From the IMG/VR virus record IMGVR_UViG_2579778634_000021: a stretch of 51,177 bases of DNA; one strand, given 5' to 3'. The DNA comes from a virus. Taxonomy: Duplodnaviria; Heunggongvirae; Uroviricota; Caudoviricetes. The notes beneath the pieces are model-generated. The model was not told where the DNA came from and made no database searches. It saw only the letters and a program-made list of their open reading frames with translations. The translations under genes were made by a program, and so were the position numbers. Positions 45,041-51,177 of this stretch are shown here, piece after piece. Numbering within the stretch: position 1 is the stretch's first letter; the number at the start of each line of letters is the position of its first letter.

Positions 45041-45195
45041 AGCATCCTCACGATAATATCCGGGTAGGCGCGATCACTTTCGTCTACTCCGTTACAAAGC
45101 GAGGCTGGGTATTTCCCGGCCTTTCTGTTATCCGAAATCCGCTGAAAGCACAGCGGCTGGCTGAGGAGATAAATAATAAACGGGAGAGTGTATGA
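45037..45195 (+). CDS. small hypothetical protein, translationally coupled
   Basis: 52-aa ORF ([19 protein letters not shown]...) with ATGA overlaps at both ends. Confidence 0.35.
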
Positions 45196-45944
45196 TTCAT
45201 TTTCACGGTGGTCCAATAACTCCCGATACCTGTGCGTTGAAAGCCTGGAAAGGCAGACACGCATTCATCAGTTTTGCTAATCCAGCTCAGATTGATCTGG
45301 CTTCCGAAGTCACCCAATCATTTGCTCTTGATAATGGTGCATTCACATTCTGGACAAAAAACAAGGCCATAGACTGGAATGAATATTACAGATTTGTTGA
45401 ACGCTGGGGTAATCACCCTCGTTTCTCATTCGCGGTTATCCCGGATGTTATCGGCGGAACCAGTGAAGAGAATGACGCCCTGATTGCGGCATGGCCTCAC
45501 GGTAAATTTATTGGTGCTCCGGTGTGGCACATGAACGAACCAGATGAGCGATTTATTCGTCTGTGCCATGAGTTTCCCCGCGTCTGCATCGGCTCGATGG
45601 GGGAATACGATGCAAAACGACCGAGAGCGTGTCGGGCTAAACTACGCGATCTTATACGTCATGTTGTAGATCAGTACGGCTACCCAATCACCAAGATTCA
45701 TGGGTTACGGATGTTAAATAAAGACATTTTTACTCATGTACCGCTTTCGTCTGCAGACAGCACGAACGTCGCAAGAAATATAGGCATCGACAAATCCTGG
45801 GTAGGTTCGCCATATGCTCCCGCAAGTAAAGAAACCCGTACGCAAGTTCTTGTGGAACGCATTGAATCATTCAACAGTGCCAGTTCACTTAATTACAACG
45901 CTGAACGGGACGTCTTTACCCCTCAACTGGCATTCGAAGTGTGA
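45192..45944 (+). CDS. hypothetical protein; candidate TGT-fold (DpdA-like) DNA-modifying enzyme
   Basis: 250 aa. Motifs LDNGAFTFW (compare TGT DSGGFQ), VIPDVIGG and HGLRM...LSSADSTN (compare the TGT MGVG...FDCV region). Assignment is tentative. Confidence 0.35.
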   Translation: MIHFHGGPITPDTCALKAWKGRHAFISFANPAQIDLASEVTQSFALDNGAFTFWTKNKAIDWNEYYRFVERWGNHPRFSFAVIPDVIGGTSEENDALIAAWPHGKFIGAPVWHMNEPDERFIRLCHEFPRVCIGSMGEYDAKRPRACRAKLRDLIRHVVDQYGYPITKIHGLRMLNKDIFTHVPLSSADSTNVARNIGIDKSWVGSPYAPASKETRTQVLVERIESFNSASSLNYNAERDVFTPQLAFEV

Positions 45945-46167: not shown

Positions 46168-46265
46168 ACATGAAAAGCAAAATCATCAGGGAGCTACAGG
46201 CTCCTTTTTTATTATTCGCATTCACCCTCAAGCGTATTAACCAACAATTCAGGGATTAATGGAAG

Positions 46266-46487
46266 ATGGCAGACCTCATTGATTCAGCATCAGAAATTGA
46301 AGAATTACAGCGCAACACAGCAATAAAAATGCGCCGCCTGAACCACCAGGCTATATCTGCCACTCATTGTTGTGAGTGTGGCGATCCCATAGATGAGCGA
46401 AGACGCCTGGCCGTTCAGGGTTGTCGGACTTGTGCAAGTTGCCAGGAGGATCTGGAGCTTATCAGTAAACAGAGAGGTTCGAAGTGA
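46266..46487 (+). CDS. TraR/DksA-family C4 zinc-finger protein (lambda Orf73-like)
   Basis: 73 aa with CCECG...(17)...CRTCASC, the pattern of TraR-type RNA polymerase-binding zinc fingers. Confidence 0.7.
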   Translation: MADLIDSASEIEELQRNTAIKMRRLNHQAISATHCCECGDPIDERRRLAVQGCRTCASCQEDLELISKQRGSK

Positions 46488-47098
46488 GCGAAATTAACTA
46501 TCAGGAACTGCGTGAAAAGGCAGAGAAAGCAACTAAAGGAAGCTACATCGTAGGGCATACATCTGTTAACCAGCACGGCAATTTAACAGGAGTTTTTGTT
46601 TGTCAAAAATGGAAAGGAGAACCCGGTGGCGTGATTGCCGAATGTCATGTTAACTGCCTGATTGAATCAGATGCTCAGGCTTATGCAAACGCTGAATTTA
46701 TAGCAGATGCTAACCCAGCTACCGTACTGGCGCTACTGGATGAACGGGAAAGAAACCAGCAATACATCAAACGCCGCGACCAGGAGAACGAGGATATTGC
46801 GCTTACGGTTGGGAAGCTGAGAGTTGAGCTTGAGGAGACAAAATCAAAACTCAACGAGCAGCGTGAGTATTACGAAGGTGTTATCTCGGATGGGAGTAAG
46901 CGCATAGCAGAGTTAGAAAGTGATTCTCAGGCACAAAAGTTAGTTGAAGCAATCATTGTTGCGATAGAAAACGAACAGGAACGTCTTTTTGATGAAGATT
47001 ACCTAATGGATTCGAAAGAATGCATTGACGTAATTCGTGAAGAAGTAAAGCGATGGAATGATTCCCGCGCCGCTGGCATTCGCATCAAAGGAGAGTGA
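46484..47098 (+). CDS. ea22: Ea22-like protein
   Basis: 204 aa. The central block [63 protein letters not shown] and the C-terminus GIRIKGE match lambda Ea22. Confidence 0.7.
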
Positions 47099-47099
47099 G

Positions 47100-47423
47100 A
47101 TGACCACATCGCATTCTGCAATTACCCAGAAAAAAGCCTTCCACATACTCGAACGATTAGAGGCGCTTGCTACGGAGGAGGAGATATCCCCGGAGAAACT
47201 GGTTGAGTTCAGCCGTGTGATATTGCGTCGCAAGAACGATATGGAGCGGCTGACATCTGGCGCTCCATCCTTATCAGTCAGGCGAACACTTTGTTGCAGC
47301 TTCTGCAACAAATCCCAGTACGCCGTCAAAAAGTTAATTGCTGGGGACGCCGTTTTCATCTGCGACGAGTGTGTGGATGTGTGCAACAGAATTATCCGGG
47401 GAGAGAAAGAGGGATCAGCATGA
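47100..47423 (+). CDS. ClpX N-terminal zinc-binding-domain-like protein
   Basis: 107 aa. The C-terminal half [35 protein letters not shown] closely resembles the ClpX C4 zinc-binding domain. Confidence 0.6.
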
Positions 47424-47941
47424 AATTTTCCAAATTTTCTGAGTTGGTGAATCGTATTTTGTCCAACAACCACAGCCATCGTCGCGATATGGATGTAACG
47501 ATCGTTGTTCATTCGCCTGGTCGCATCGGTTCAACACCATCAGTTGAGGTTCAGTCAATTAAGGCGGGTTTTGATTGGGATGCCGGGCAAGTGATGATTT
47601 TTCCAGCACAGCCACTGACCACGCTAACACCGGAGCAGGTTGCTGATATCACTGATAGTGTGCGCAAAGGTCAGTCTTGGCACGCGTATCAGGAATACAA
47701 GAAGCATAAAGAGCAGTTGGAAAAATTGTCGATGGAGTTGGAAGCCGCTAAACAGCGGGAAAAAGATCTGTTTATGGAAAATGTTCGACTTAAGTCAGGC
47801 ATAGCCGGTCTGATACACCTCGGTATTCGATATGCAGATGTTGAGGTCATGAAAATTGCTGGAGATGCCCAGCTTTCTACCCCATGCACTGACAGCATCA
47901 TAAACAGCATTGCAACAGGCATTCGCATCAAAGGAGAGTGA
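47420..47941 (+). CDS. hypothetical protein with an Ea22-type C-terminal tail
   Basis: 173 aa ending in TGIRIKGE like the Ea22-like protein, with a coiled-coil segment. Confidence 0.45.
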
Positions 47942-47942
47942 T

Positions 47943-48206
47943 ATGGCAACTTTAACAAAAAAAGAACGGGCATGGTTGAACGAATTACAGGACGTTCTTG
48001 ATCGCTGTCCATCACCGAAAAAAATTGGTTTTTACACCATTGGCGATAAAAGCATTTACCTTTATGACCTGCGCCGCATGGATGAAATCATGGAGGCTCT
48101 TGATAATCGTTCGTCGATGGATTGGTGTGTTGCTGTTCATGATATGAATGCAGGGTTTGATGAAAAGATTTTGTTCCCCTCGTCAGTTGAAAGCACAGCG
48201 GGTTAA
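47943..48206 (+). CDS. hypothetical protein
   Basis: 87 aa from MATLTKKERAWLNELQ. Confidence 0.4.
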   Translation: MATLTKKERAWLNELQDVLDRCPSPKKIGFYTIGDKSIYLYDLRRMDEIMEALDNRSSMDWCVAVHDMNAGFDEKILFPSSVESTAG

Positions 48207-48216
48207 GGAGTAACAC

Positions 48217-49119
48217 ATGACCACTATTACCAAAGAACGTATCGAATTATTCATTAAAAATCCGCTTGATAACGGGCTTACCCGTGGCGAACAAATGGAA
48301 GTGGCACGGATTGCGCTGGCATCGCTGGAAGCAGATCCAGTTAAACGAGTTAACTCAGATCAGATGCGCCGAGTCTGCTTAGAAGCTAATCGCCATTTAG
48401 ATAAATATGACGCGATGGCGAAAGAGGTAAATAAGTTGCTTGGACGCATCGCCCCGCCAGCACCGGTAGTGCCTGAAGAAGCAACTCCGGAAAACGTAGA
48501 AATGCTCTCTGGCTATGTTTCAACGTACAAATTAACCGATAGCGAGCGCGATATTGCTGCCGAAATATGGAACGCCTGCCGCGCCGCCATGCTTCAGTCC
48601 GGAAACTTTCGGGAAAACAAGAATTCGTCAACCAATAATTTTCGGGAAATCGCGGAAACGTCAACCAACTATCCGGCAATTCCTAGTGAGGTGTTGTCCG
48701 CAATCCTGAAGGTTGCCAGGATTCGTGCCGATTTCGATGATTTTGACGGTGACAGGCGAGGTATCGGTGATTGTCTGGATGAGGCTGAGCAAGAGCTTAT
48801 CGTTACCATTAACAAATATGCCAGTCAGTTGGCAGCAGAACCTATAGCGCCTAATGACGTTCGAGAGCAGACAGCCATTCCACAAGTTCCGGTAACTCCG
48901 GATGGTTGGATAAGCTGTAGTGAGCGAATGCCGAACGATAAACAGTATGTTTGGTGTTGGGGTAAGTCTTACGGCTGGACTGAGTGCGATACCTTCGAAG
49001 GGTATTACGATTGTTCGAGAAACAAATGGTGGGCAGTTACTGACAATGGGGAAGAACCGGCATCGAAAGTAACCCACTGGATGCCGCTACCGGAGCCGCC
49101 GCAGGAGGTGAATCAATGA
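48217..49119 (+). CDS. DUF551-domain phage protein
   Basis: 300 aa. The C-terminal motif WISCSERMPNDKQYVWCWG...THWMPLPEPP is typical of the DUF551 family. Confidence 0.55.
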   Translation: MTTITKERIELFIKNPLDNGLTRGEQMEVARIALASLEADPVKRVNSDQMRRVCLEANRHLDKYDAMAKEVNKLLGRIAPPAPVVPEEATPENVEMLSGYVSTYKLTDSERDIAAEIWNACRAAMLQSGNFRENKNSSTNNFREIAETSTNYPAIPSEVLSAILKVARIRADFDDFDGDRRGIGDCLDEAEQELIVTINKYASQLAAEPIAPNDVREQTAIPQVPVTPDGWISCSERMPNDKQYVWCWGKSYGWTECDTFEGYYDCSRNKWWAVTDNGEEPASKVTHWMPLPEPPQEVNQ

Positions 49120-49890: not shown

Positions 49891-51177
49891 ATGAGTAACG
49901 TATCATACCCGACAGGCGTTGAAAACCATGGAGGATCACTCCGTATATGGTTTCACTATAATGGCAAACGTGTCAGAGAAAACCTCGGTGTTCCTGACAC
50001 CGCCAAAAACCGGAAGATCGCAGGTGAACTTCGCACTTCCGTTTGTTTTGCAATCAGAATGGGGAGTTTCGACTACGCTACACAGTTCCCTAATTCCCCT
50101 AACCTGAAACACTTTGGTCTGGGAAAAAGAGAGATAACCGTTAAGGCACTTTCGGAAAAATGGTTGGACCTTAAGAAAATTGAGATTTGTGCGAATGCAC
50201 TTAATCGTTACCAGTCAGTAATTAAAAACATGTTGCCTATGTTGGGTGAGAAAAAACTGGTTTCATCCATAACAAAAGAGGATTTACTTTTCGCAAGGAG
50301 AGATTTGTTGACCGGTTACCAAAAGCTTTCTAATGGAAAGATTTCTTCCATAAAAGGGCGCTCAGTGGTCACAGTAAACTACTATATGACAACCATAGCT
50401 GGAATGTTTCAATTTGCAACAGATAATGGTTATACCTCAGGAAACCCATTTAACGGTCTGGCCCCCTTAAAAAAGTCCAAGGTAAAACCAGATCCTCTCA
50501 CCCGTGACGAATTTATTCGTTTTATTGAGGCTTGCCGTCATCAACAAACAAAAAACCTGTGGATTCTCGCTGTATACACGGGTATTCGTCACGGGGAGCT
50601 GGTATCGCTGGCATGGGAAGATATAGATCTTAAAGCAAGGACTATAACCATCCGTAGGAATTATACAAAACTTGGCGAATTCACTCCACCAAAAACCGAT
50701 GCTGGCACCGGAAGGACAATTCATCTGGTTCAACCAGCTATTGATGCTCTTAAAAGTCAGGCGGAAATGACCATGCTTGGAAAGCAACATTCTGTAGAGG
50801 TAAAGCAGAGGGAATATGGGAGAAGTACTGTGCATAAATGCACTTTTGTTTTTAGTCCTCAGGTAATAAAACAGCGGCAGTTTTCCGGACCGCACTATAA
50901 GGTTGACTCCATCAGGGAGTCATGGACAAGTATCTTAAAACGCGCAGGTCTGAGACACAGAAAATCGTACCAATCCAGGCATACTTATGCATGCTGGTCA
51001 CTTGCCGCTGGAGCTAATCCTAGTTTTATCGCAAGCCAGATGGGCCACACAAACGCACAAATGGTATTCAATGTTTACGGAGCATGGATGAAAGACAACA
51101 ATCACGAACAGATAGAACTCCTTAACAAAAGACTATCTGAAAGTGTCCCATGTATGCCCCATAAGAAAGCTGGGTAA
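49891..51177 (+). CDS. int: tyrosine-type site-specific integrase
   Basis: 428 aa. The C-terminal catalytic region (RHTYACWSLAAGANPSFIASQMGHTNAQMVFNVYGAW) has the R..H.R..Y arrangement. Last gene of the prophage at the window edge. Confidence 0.9.
   Translation: MSNVSYPTGVENHGGSLRIWFHYNGKRVRENLGVPDTAKNRKIAGELRTSVCFAIRMGSFDYATQFPNSPNLKHFGLGKREITVKALSEKWLDLKKIEICANALNRYQSVIKNMLPMLGEKKLVSSITKEDLLFARRDLLTGYQKLSNGKISSIKGRSVVTVNYYMTTIAGMFQFATDNGYTSGNPFNGLAPLKKSKVKPDPLTRDEFIRFIEACRHQQTKNLWILAVYTGIRHGELVSLAWEDIDLKARTITIRRNYTKLGEFTPPKTDAGTGRTIHLVQPAIDALKSQAEMTMLGKQHSVEVKQREYGRSTVHKCTFVFSPQVIKQRQFSGPHYKVDSIRESWTSILKRAGLRHRKSYQSRHTYACWSLAAGANPSFIASQMGHTNAQMVFNVYGAWMKDNNHEQIELLNKRLSESVPCMPHKKAG

What the first reader, a model, noticed from the sequence alone, without database searches (positions are those of the whole stretch)
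47100..47423. Phage-encoded mimic of the ClpX zinc-binding domain
The C-terminal part of this 107-aa protein ([35 protein letters not shown]) closely resembles the N-terminal C4 zinc-binding domain of the host ClpX unfoldase. That domain dimerises and binds adaptors and substrates, including lambda O. A free-standing copy could act as a decoy or dominant-negative partner that tunes ClpXP proteolysis of phage or host proteins. It is flanked by two proteins with Ea22-type C-terminal tails.
Basis: partly seen in the sequence, partly recalled or inferred. Interest (0 to 1): 0.55.

Follow-up and report, generated by a model that had tools for sequence, protein, structure and literature searches.

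The report
Phage protein carrying a ClpX-type zinc domain
A small gene of temperate E. coli and Salmonella phages encodes a free-standing copy of the zinc-binding docking domain of the host ClpX unfoldase joined to a conserved helical domain found nowhere else; it probably interferes with how the host ClpXP protease selects its targets, but nobody has tested this.

Summary
Window 47100-47423 (+) encodes a 107-aa protein. Residues 64-100 are a ClpX-type C4 zinc-binding domain (ZBD): Pfam PF06689 scores 57 bits (E 1e-15), identity to E. coli ClpX 12-51 is 70% with the same CxxC-x18-CxxC spacing, and the predicted fold lies 0.5-0.7 Å from solved ZBD structures.

RefSeq already names the gene "ClpX C4-type zinc finger protein". 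PHROGs lists it as function unknown, and I found no functional study.

- The ZBD is always fused to a conserved two-helix N-terminal domain that occurs in no other architecture.
- The family is confined to Escherichia and Salmonella. It sits in accessory regions of four temperate phage types (lambdoid, about 110-kb phage-plasmids, P1-like D6, P2-like P88) and has no conserved neighbour.
- It is not a recent copy of host clpX (64% nucleotide identity).
- The ClpX adaptor-docking loop (AGPS) reads AGDA here. It is the most variable part of the domain in this subfamily, while the P88-like subfamily keeps AGPS.

A role in ClpXP substrate selection is the most economical reading, and isolated ZBD inhibits ClpXP in vitro. 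A plain copy-of-host decoy is weakened, and ClpX-independent roles remain open. The gene lies in an 893-bp mosaic segment inside an Ea22 gene.

The parts
47100..47423 (+). CDS of the 107-aa two-domain protein (RefSeq WP_000213528.1, 'ClpX C4-type zinc finger protein'; PHROG 6797)
47087..47095 (+). Shine-Dalgarno-like AAAGGAGAG. It lies inside the last codons of the upstream Ea22-like gene, whose TGA is at 47096-47098
   Evidence: read directly from the sequence
47124..47258 (+). N-terminal domain, residues 9-53: predicted helical hairpin (H10-26, H31-52). Invariant residues are R19 L20 E21 L23 T25 E26 E27 I29 L34 R44 K45 D47 L51. It is found only fused to this ZBD.
47259..47288 (+). Low-confidence linker, residues 54-63 (pLDDT below 50 for residues 56-61)
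47289..47399 (+). ClpX-type C4 zinc-binding domain, residues 64-100. Cys codons: 47295-97 (C66), 47304-06 (C69), 47361-63 (C88), 47370-72 (C91).
47340..47351 (+). Loop A81-G82-D83-A84, equivalent to the ClpX adaptor-docking loop A29-G30-P31-S32. It differs from the host at 2 of 4 positions and is the most variable ZBD segment in this subfamily.
46484..47098 (+). Upstream Ead/Ea22-like gene (204 aa), translationally abutting the ZBD gene
47420..47941 (+). Downstream 173-aa gene, with an ATGA start/stop overlap. It is a chimera of an N-terminal part (PHROG 6026) and an Ea22 C-terminal part from about 47735.
47075..47107 (+). Copy 1 of a 33-nt direct repeat (…GIRIKGE stop, SD, ATG): the gene-boundary sequence
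47918..47950 (+). Copy 2 of the 33-nt direct repeat (91% identical)
46843..47734 (+). About 893-bp mosaic segment absent from phage PhiR5_1, where a single Ea22 gene joins window 46484-46842 directly to 47735-47941. The segment carries an alternative Ea22 C-terminus, the ZBD gene and the 5' part of the 173-aa gene.

Best explanation
The gene encodes a small accessory protein of temperate enterobacterial phages. It is co-transcribed with the early-left (exo-to-int) genes of this lambdoid prophage. The protein has two parts: an orphan N-terminal helical hairpin and a genuine ClpX-type zinc-binding domain.

Most likely it acts on the ZBD-dependent branch of host ClpXP substrate selection. Its ZBD, probably a dimer like the ClpX ZBD, would occupy ligands that normally dock on the ClpX N-domain: adaptors such as SspB and RssB, or N-domain-dependent substrates. 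That would slow their degradation while leaving ZBD-independent substrates untouched. The conserved N-domain would supply a second function, either binding a specific partner or raising avidity through oligomerisation.

Shown here: the domain identity, the predicted fold, the conservation pattern, the distribution and the genomic setting. Inferred: dimerisation, zinc binding, any contact with ClpX ligands, and the biological outcome.
For: - **Genuine ZBD.** It has all four zinc ligands, the same spacing as ClpX and a superposable predicted fold.
- **Binding pocket kept.** The equivalents of ClpX F16 and I46 form the hydrophobic pocket that overlaps the lambda O, trigger factor, SspB and RssB site. 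They are conserved: F68 in 26/26 members, position 98 I or V in 23/26.
- **Mechanistic precedent.** Free ClpX ZBD at 5-20 µM inhibits RssB-mediated sigma-S turnover by ClpXP in vitro (PMC7226468 Fig 1d).
- **Similarity kept by selection, not recency.** Amino-acid identity to the host ZBD is 70-78%, while nucleotide identity is 64-65% and only 12-13 of 28-31 conserved residues share a codon.
- **A host target is implied.** The family occurs in lambdoid prophages, about 110-kb phage-plasmids, P1-like D6 and P2-like P88, always without a conserved partner gene and only in Escherichia and Salmonella.
- **Both domains are constrained.** Between distant pairs, dN/dS is 0.1-0.4 for the N-domain and 0.2-0.5 for the ZBD.
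Against: - No experiment exists, and no literature on this family was found.
- The adaptor-docking loop AGPS is replaced: AGDA here, and Pro is never retained in 26 subfamily members. It is the most variable ZBD segment. Binding of SspB-type tails as in ClpX therefore cannot be assumed for this subfamily.
- Close family members show ZBD dN/dS of 1 or more. The sequences are short and the estimate is noisy.
- A pure decoy would not need the strictly conserved N-domain.
- In vitro inhibition by free ZBD needed a roughly 10- to 30-fold molar excess over ClpX.
Confidence: 0.4

Rival explanations
1. ClpX-independent small regulator. The ZBD is only a zinc-stabilised dimerisation and binding platform, as in other non-ClpX proteins with this fold. 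The specific function lies in the conserved N-terminal hairpin, which binds some other host or phage protein such as a transcription or replication factor. ClpXP is not involved.
For: - The N-domain is at least as conserved as the ZBD and has lower dN/dS.
- The docking loop diverges from the host's and varies within the subfamily.
- zf-C4_ClpX is an accessory domain of cyanobacterial sigma-70 factors.
- Many small non-AAA+ proteins carry the domain.
Against: - The ZBD stays unusually ClpX-like, at 70-78% identity to the host domain, despite saturated synonymous sites. This includes the surface pocket residues F16 and I46.
- The P88-like subfamily keeps the host-type docking loop AGPS exactly.
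- No DNA-binding or other known motif is detected in the N-domain.
Confidence: 0.3
2. ClpX-docking modulator or adaptor. The phage ZBD pairs with a ClpX ZBD to form mixed dimers, or the protein otherwise docks on ClpX. This places the N-domain on the unfoldase, where it either blocks the N-domain layer (dominant-negative) or recruits a new target for degradation (re-targeting).
For: - The ClpX ZBD is a constitutive dimer, and ClpX hexamers carry three ZBD dimers.
- The core and helix residues of the phage ZBD are highly similar to the host's.
- The two-domain layout (docking module, flexible linker, second module) resembles adaptor architecture.
- Phages are known to encode Clp adaptors, for example ClpS in jumbo phages (PMC7824862).
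Against: - Dimer-interface compatibility could not be assessed, because no multimer prediction or coordinates were available.
- Helix positions 42, 45 and 46 vary within the family.
- Exchange into the stable pre-formed ClpX ZBD dimers may be slow (inference).
Confidence: 0.15
3. Prophage-encoded exclusion or counter-defence factor. This is a biological role that could use either mechanism above. By disturbing ClpX N-domain functions in the lysogen or early in infection, it would block competitors that need ClpX, such as Mu-type transposable phages. Alternatively it would prevent ClpXP-dependent triggering of host systems through antitoxin or HsdR turnover.
For: - In P2-like prophages the gene lies between gpA and the portal gene gpQ. 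That locus is the published hotspot of anti-phage systems (PMC9122126).
- In the other phages it sits in accessory arrays.
- The fast-evolving ZBD surface is compatible with an arms race.
- ClpXP drives EcoKI restriction alleviation (abstract of PMC11109961).
- Mu's dependence on ClpX is established knowledge, not tested here.
Against: - No match to any PADLOC defence model.
- No excess of promoter-like sites that would suggest expression in the lysogen.
- In the lambdoid window the gene lies in the repressed early-left operon.
- The family is not mentioned in the two P2-hotspot papers searched.
Confidence: 0.1

Closest known systems
[quoted passage not shown]
   Same: - Same Pfam family.
- Same C4 ligand pattern and spacing.
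- 70% identity over 40 residues.
- Predicted fold within 0.5-0.7 Å.
- The F16 and I46 pocket residues are kept.
   Different: - Free-standing and C-terminal rather than N-terminal to an AAA+ module.
- The adaptor-docking loop is AGDA instead of AGPS.
- Y34 is replaced by F.
- Preceded by an unrelated helical domain.
- Nucleotide identity is only 64%, so it is not a recent copy.
Phage homologues: P88 gp19 (P2-like), D6 orf93 (P1-like), and the gene in Escherichia phages PhiR41_1 and CMS-2020a and in plasmid p09EL50
   Same: Same two-domain architecture. Identity is 50-100%. All lie in accessory regions near Ea22-like genes.
   Different: - P88-type members keep the host-like AGPS loop and are closer to the E. 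coli ZBD (78%).
- None has a described function.
- Older records call them 'carboxylate--amine ligase', which nothing in the sequence supports.
Purified ClpX ZBD used in trans as a competitor in vitro (Micevski et al. 2020, PMC7226468)
   Same: A free ZBD competing with ClpX for RssB and so slowing sigma-S degradation is exactly the proposed mechanism.
   Different: It is a laboratory construct of the host's own domain used at large molar excess. The phage protein has an altered docking loop and an extra domain.
RssB anti-adaptors IraD, IraM and IraP, and phage-encoded modulators of host AAA+ proteases (lambda CIII on FtsH, T4 PinA and T7 Gp4.5 on Lon, SPO1 Gp53 on ClpC, jumbo-phage ClpS)
   Same: All are small proteins that change what a host AAA+ protease degrades. 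IraD shares a docking site on RssB with the ZBD. Jumbo-phage ClpS is noted.
   Different: None uses a copy of the protease's own substrate-docking domain. The listed phage examples other than ClpS come from my own knowledge and were not checked here. No functional link is shown for the present protein.
B. subtilis CsfB (Gin), PDB 5N7Y, and zf-C4_ClpX accessory domains of cyanobacterial sigma factors
   Same: Small zinc domains of the same or a similar fold used outside ClpX for protein-protein regulation.

Membership tests
Pfam PF06689 zf-C4_ClpX (ClpX-type zinc-binding domain) | Scores above the curated gathering threshold | tested here: met
   57.4 bits against a cut-off of 27, E 1.3e-15, profile positions 2-38 of 39
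Pfam PF06689 zf-C4_ClpX (ClpX-type zinc-binding domain) | Four Cys ligands as CxxC-x18-CxxC, aligned to ClpX C14, C17, C36 and C39 | tested here: met
   C66, C69, C88 and C91 in a gapless alignment to ClpX 10-50. All four are invariant in 26 family members.
Pfam PF06689 zf-C4_ClpX (ClpX-type zinc-binding domain) | Treble-clef fold superposable on solved ZBD structures | tested here: met
Pfam PF06689 zf-C4_ClpX (ClpX-type zinc-binding domain) | Zinc binding and constitutive homodimerisation | not testable with these tools
   Needs metal analysis and SEC-MALS or cross-linking. No multimer prediction was available.
ClpX unfoldase (AAA+) | AAA+ ATPase module following the ZBD | tested here: not met
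   The protein is 107 aa and the ZBD is at its C-terminus. There is no AAA+ Pfam hit. It is not a ClpX fragment, since the ORF is intact and conserved as such in 68 of 80 viral loci.
Functional mimic (decoy) of the host ClpX ZBD | Adaptor-docking loop identical or similar to host A29-G30-P31-S32 | tested here: not met
   The window has AGDA. In the main subfamily Pro31 is kept in 0/26 (D 17, E 8, Q 1) and Ser32 in 1/26. The P88-like and Salmonella subfamilies do keep AGPS.
Functional mimic (decoy) of the host ClpX ZBD | Hydrophobic pocket residues F16 and I46 (site overlapping lambda O, trigger factor, SspB and RssB) | tested here: met
   F68 is invariant. Position 98 is V in 14, I in 9 and L, A or G in one each of 26 members. 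The window has I98.
Functional mimic (decoy) of the host ClpX ZBD | Physical binding of ClpX N-domain ligands, and inhibition of their ClpXP-dependent degradation | not testable with these tools
   Only the in vitro precedent with the host's own ZBD exists.
Recently captured host gene fragment | Nucleotide-level similarity to E. coli clpX | tested here: not met
   64-65% nucleotide identity over 120 nt. Identical codons at only 12-13 of 28-31 conserved residues. blastn of the ZBD-coding DNA of P88 gp19, a family member, finds no clpX in 5426 genomes.
Known anti-phage defence systems (PADLOC-DB 2.0) | Match to any defence-protein model, for the gene or its neighbours | tested here: not met
   0 families at E up to 0.01 for 8 proteins
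BAG domain (considered for the N-terminal hairpin) | Profile-level similarity to BAG domains | tested here: not met
   A single phmmer hit (E 5.8e-5) to one multi-BAG protein. No Pfam BAG hit for the N-domain at E up to 1. The family profile finds no BAG structure in PDB sequences at E up to 10.

The most novel reading that the evidence does not exclude
The protein is a weapon of phage conflict built from the host protease's own docking domain. By occupying or re-wiring the ClpX N-domain layer it would do one of two things. It could exclude competitors that need ClpX, such as Mu-type transposable phages. Or it could disarm ClpXP-dependent host responses, such as antitoxin turnover, EcoKI HsdR alleviation or sigma-S control. 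The orphan N-domain would choose the victim, and the rapidly varying ZBD surface would record an arms race. This would be the first natural 'domain-decoy' regulator of a bacterial AAA+ protease.
Probability: 0.12. Interest if true: 0.8.

Novelty: new variant of a known kind. Interest (0 to 1): 0.5.

Why it matters
ClpXP controls phage-relevant proteins (lambda O, MuA and Mu repressor, the P1 antitoxin Phd, LexA fragments, UmuD) as well as sigma-S. These examples come from established knowledge. Several of them are selected through the ClpX N-domain.

If confirmed, this would be a natural, mobile, free-standing copy of that domain spread over four temperate phage lineages. It would show that phages tune host proteolysis by copying the protease's docking module. 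It would also give a simple genetic tool to switch off only the adaptor-dependent branch of ClpXP.

If instead the domain acts independently of ClpX, the family would define a new small two-domain phage regulator. Either outcome can be tested with standard assays. At present the finding is a correctly recognised and already annotated domain, with an untested functional idea attached.

Tried and rejected
1. **Conserved partner gene.** The downstream 173-aa protein of the window and the 169-aa protein of a P2-like locus are unrelated. Neighbours differ in every context. So this is not a two-gene system.
2. **Known defence system.** No PADLOC match.
3. **Recent capture from host clpX.** Rejected on nucleotide and codon comparison.
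4. **N-domain as a BAG-like Hsp70-binding domain.** One formally significant hit to a multi-BAG protein was not reproduced by Pfam or by a family profile against PDB sequences. Treated as a compositional match.
5. **N-domain carrying an SspB-like ZBD-docking motif.** The published consensus is LKxh. The conserved L42-R43-R44-K45 does not fit, so the idea was dropped.
7. **Own promoter or terminator.** Consensus sites are no more frequent than in shuffled sequence.
8. **Literature.** Searches for the domain name, phage ClpX inhibitors, exo-xis region plus ClpX, and P2 hotspot plus ClpX found no study of this family. The primary ZBD papers (Wojtyra 2003, Donaldson 2003, Thibault 2006, Park 2007) are not held. 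Contact and dimer-interface residues could therefore not be checked residue by residue.

Full report
**1. What is in the sequence**

Window 47100-47423 (+) is an intact 107-aa ORF. The start codon is preceded by AAAGGAGAG and lies one base after the TGA of the upstream gene. Its own stop overlaps the ATG of the next gene (ATGA). The gene is therefore one link in a tightly packed, co-directional array.

The array runs from the recombination genes to the integrase: gam 43276, bet 43578, exo 44360, integrase 49891-51177. That is the exo-to-int accessory region of a lambdoid prophage. Promoter- and terminator-like sites around the gene are no more frequent than in shuffled sequence. I infer expression as part of the early-left transcript.

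**2. The zinc domain is real**

- Residues 65-100 match Pfam zf-C4_ClpX at 57.4 bits against a cut-off of 27, E 1.3e-15.
- Against all PDB sequences the best hits are the E. coli ClpX ZBD entries 2DS5 and 1OVX (E 1e-14). The alignment is gapless, residues 62-102 to ClpX 10-50.
- Identity to ClpX 12-51 is 28 of 40.
- C66, C69, C88 and C91 fall on the four zinc ligands with identical spacing.

Its first refutation criterion, that the cysteines would not align, is not met.

**3. What was already known**

RefSeq/PGAP annotates this exact protein (WP_000213528.1) as "ClpX C4-type zinc finger protein". Older GenBank records call relatives "carboxylate--amine ligase", a name that nothing in the sequence supports. 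PHROGs holds the family as phrog_6797, function unknown.

Full-text searches gave no study of the family. I searched for the domain name, for phage inhibitors of ClpX, for the exo-xis region with ClpX, and for P2 hotspots with ClpX. The domain identification is thus not new, but the function is open.

**4.

The protein has two domains. Residues 9-53 form a predicted helical hairpin (helices 10-26 and 31-52). Residues 54-63 are a low-confidence linker, and the ZBD follows.

In the family alignment the hairpin is at least as conserved as the ZBD. Its invariant residues are R19, L20, E21, L23, T25, E26, E27, I29, L34, R44, K45, D47 and L51.

An exhaustive HMMER scan of 1.84 billion representative proteins with the N-domain alone found nine proteins. 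Eight are members, truncated copies or frameshifted copies of this same two-domain family. The ninth is a eukaryote-type multi-BAG protein (E 5.8e-5). That lead failed two follow-up tests. The N-domain has no Pfam BAG hit at E up to 1. A family profile finds no BAG structure in PDB sequences at E up to 10.

The N-domain is therefore an orphan that exists only in fusion with this ZBD.

**5. Distribution**

*Complete E. coli genomes.* The gene is found at 80% nucleotide identity or more in 108 of 5426 genomes. Of these, 103 copies are on plasmids and 5 on chromosomes. The listed plasmid records are 106-111 kb. They include O104:H4 p09EL50, and the same element type is deposited as Escherichia phages CMS-2020a and PhiR41_1. 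That these are SSU5-type phage-plasmids is my own inference.

*More divergent members.*
- P1-like phage D6: orf93, between ref and ppp.
- P2-like phage P88: gp19, 50% identical overall.
- Many P2-like prophages, where the order is gpA, ParM, StbB, (small ORF), ZBD gene, variable genes, portal gpQ. The gpA-gpQ interval is the published hotspot of anti-phage systems in P2-like phages (PMC9122126).

*Viral contigs.* An IMG/VR scan found 251 viral contigs encoding a relative. Of the best 80:
- 67 carry the intact two-domain protein (107-128 aa);
- 11 are full-length ClpX;
- 2 are frameshift fusions with the downstream gene.

*Host range and neighbours.* Named members come only from Escherichia and Salmonella. 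Neighbouring genes differ in every context. The proteins immediately downstream in the window and in a P2-like locus are unrelated. None of eight proteins tested (five from the window locus, three from a P2-like locus) matches a PADLOC model. The only recurrent companions are Ea22-like genes.

Four phage types with unrelated replication modules share the gene, and there is no conserved partner. I infer that the target is a host component or a generic competitor. Lambda O cannot be the general target.

**6. How the gene sits in this window**

Both flanking genes end in …GIRIKGE, within a 33-nt direct repeat at 47075-47107 and 47918-47950.

Phage PhiR5_1 has a single 182-aa Ea22 gene. It equals window 46484-46842 (98.8% nucleotide identity) joined directly to window 47735-47941 (95.3%). 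Relative to that arrangement, the window carries an 893-bp mosaic segment (46843-47734) inside the Ea22 coiled-coil region. The segment contributes three things:
- an alternative Ea22 C-terminus;
- the ZBD gene;
- the N-terminal 105 residues of the 173-aa protein, which is therefore a chimera with an Ea22 tail.

It also shows that the gene travels by recombination between Ea22 paralogues.

**7. Is it a copy of the host domain?**

Not a recent one. Over the 40-codon ZBD, the window gene is 64% identical in nucleotides to E. coli K-12 clpX, and the P88 gene is 65% identical. Only 12-13 of the 28-31 conserved amino acids use the same codon. blastn with the P88 ZBD-coding DNA finds only phage-type genes and no clpX in 5426 genomes.

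The 70-78% protein identity is therefore maintained by selection, not by recency.

**8. Does it keep the ClpX binding surfaces?**

Two published landmarks could be mapped.

[quoted passage not shown] That pocket is needed for the trigger-factor effect. It overlaps the lambda O site, and SspB and RssB bind the same region (PMC7804408). The equivalents are:
- F68, invariant in the family;
- position 98, which is V in 14, I in 9 and other residues in 3 of 26 members, and I in the window.

*(b) The adaptor-docking loop.* It was defined by the SSTR(120-123)-to-AAAA mutant of human CLPX and boxed in the prokaryotic alignment (PMC7647994). I verified the human sequence and numbering against PDB 9YKX. 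By gapless alignment the loop corresponds to E. coli A29-G30-P31-S32.
- The window protein has A81-G82-D83-A84.
- In the 26-member main subfamily Pro is never kept (D 17, E 8, Q 1) and Ser is kept once.
- Positions 31-32 of this loop are among the most variable ZBD columns, together with positions 18, 22, 23, 41, 42, 45 and 46.
- The P88-like and Salmonella subfamilies keep AGPS exactly and are 75-78% identical to the host ZBD.

*Selection.* Nei-Gojobori estimates on six genes give dN/dS of 0.1-0.4 for the N-domain. For the ZBD they give 0.2-0.5 between distant pairs but 1 or more between close pairs (window against P0010 1.24; window against D6 2.05). With 38 codons this is noisy.

For the same pair of genes the two domains can have very different dS. 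For example, P0010 against P0020 gives 0.03 in the N-domain and 0.42 in the ZBD. This indicates recombination between the domains.

In short, the fold core and the pocket are kept. The adaptor loop and nearby surface evolve quickly in the subfamily to which the window gene belongs.

**9. Most likely mechanism**

Every documented activity of this domain type in enterobacteria is as the dimeric docking platform of ClpX for adaptors and N-domain-dependent substrates.

Purified ZBD added in trans at 5-20 µM inhibits RssB-dependent sigma-S degradation by 0.6 µM ClpXP. Deleting the ZBD abolishes that reaction while sparing ssrA substrates (PMC7226468).

My preferred reading (confidence 0.4) combines this with the host-directed distribution and the selective maintenance of a ClpX-like sequence. 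The protein would interfere with the ZBD-dependent branch of ClpXP substrate selection by competing for ZBD ligands. The conserved N-domain would add partner specificity or avidity.

- Shown: domain identity, predicted fold, conservation pattern, distribution.
- Inferred: zinc binding, dimerisation, any ligand, and the outcome for the phage.

**10. Rivals**

- **(i) ClpX-independent regulator (0.3).** The ZBD would be only a dimerising zinc module. In favour: the dominant conservation of the N-domain, the divergent loop, and the use of the same Pfam domain in cyanobacterial sigma factors and in many small non-AAA+ proteins. A weak structural echo of the anti-sigma factor CsfB also fits.
- **(ii) Docking on ClpX itself through mixed ZBD dimers (0.15).** The protein would act as a poison or as an adaptor.
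- **(iii) A role in phage-phage or phage-defence conflict (0.1).** This is a biological role and overlaps the mechanisms above. It is suggested by the P2 hotspot location and the fast-evolving surface. It has no PADLOC support and no sign of lysogenic expression.

**11. Verdict**

The decoy interpretation is reasonable and has an in vitro precedent, but it is untested. For this subfamily it is weakened as a plain host mimic by the altered docking loop and the obligatory extra domain.

The family is a distinctive, mobile, uncharacterised two-domain architecture shared by four temperate phage lineages. I rate it a new variant of a known kind, of moderate interest (0.5), with clear and inexpensive experiments available.

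Noticed in passing
L003 3439-4714; L007 3439-4714; L012 2665-3940 (phage P88 gp17-gp18): P2-like prophages and phage P88 carry a ParM/StbA-type segregation ATPase and a StbB-type partner directly after the replication gene gpA. These are plasmid-partition genes in an integrating phage, upstream of the hotspot that holds the ZBD gene.
   Followed up: no
L015 1522-1761 (Caulobacter phage Cr30, NC_025422 about 81470-81709): A virulent T4-like Caulobacter phage encodes a small free-standing ClpX-type ZBD (…[40 protein letters not shown]…). The annotated CDS gp170 starts at 1636, which would cut off the first CxxC, so the start is probably mis-called. Free-standing phage ZBDs therefore occur outside enterobacterial phages and without the N-domain.
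   Followed up: partly
L034 and L035 (IMG/VR contigs 2695420412_000010 and 2648501466_000020): In two viral contigs the ZBD gene is frameshifted after …FICDEC and fused to the downstream 173-aa gene. The resulting ORFs are 282 and 235 aa and lose the fourth Cys and the helix. They are probably pseudogenes or assembly errors.
   Followed up: no
window 46266-46487 (+): A 73-aa TraR/DksA-type C4 zinc-finger protein (Pfam PF01258, E 8e-9) sits two genes upstream and overlaps the Ea22-like start. It is a second small mimic-like copy of a host regulator domain in the same accessory array.
   Followed up: no
window 46188-46206 (+): A terminator-like hairpin (8 pairs plus a T-run) lies between the 117-aa ORF and the TraR-like gene, inside the co-directional early array. 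It could be an N-antiterminated site.
   Followed up: no
window 45192-45944 (+): A 250-aa ORF right after exo has no Pfam hit. Related E. coli prophages annotate an 'Nmad5 family putative nucleotide modification protein' somewhere in this 11-kb region. I did not establish whether that is this ORF.
   Followed up: no
window 48217-49119 (+): A 300-aa protein has a C-terminal DUF551 domain (E 8e-18) and an internal near-tandem 32-nt repeat at 48604-48668. DUF551 genes also accompany the ZBD gene on plasmid p09EL50.
   Followed up: no
P0122 (650-aa protein from the representative library): The only non-family hit of the N-domain is a eukaryote-type protein with five BAG-domain repeats and a weak, sub-threshold Pfam ubiquitin match (E 0.17). 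The phmmer E-value is 5.8e-5 and the match covers BAG helices 2-3. Profile tests did not support it, but it is the only outside similarity the orphan domain has.
   Followed up: yes
Database names for P0004-P0030, P88 gp19 and D6 orf93: Many GenBank and nr records name this family 'carboxylate--amine ligase', and one names it 'ATP-dependent clp protease ATP-binding subunit ClpX'. Both are propagated misnomers for a 107-120-aa protein.
   Followed up: partly
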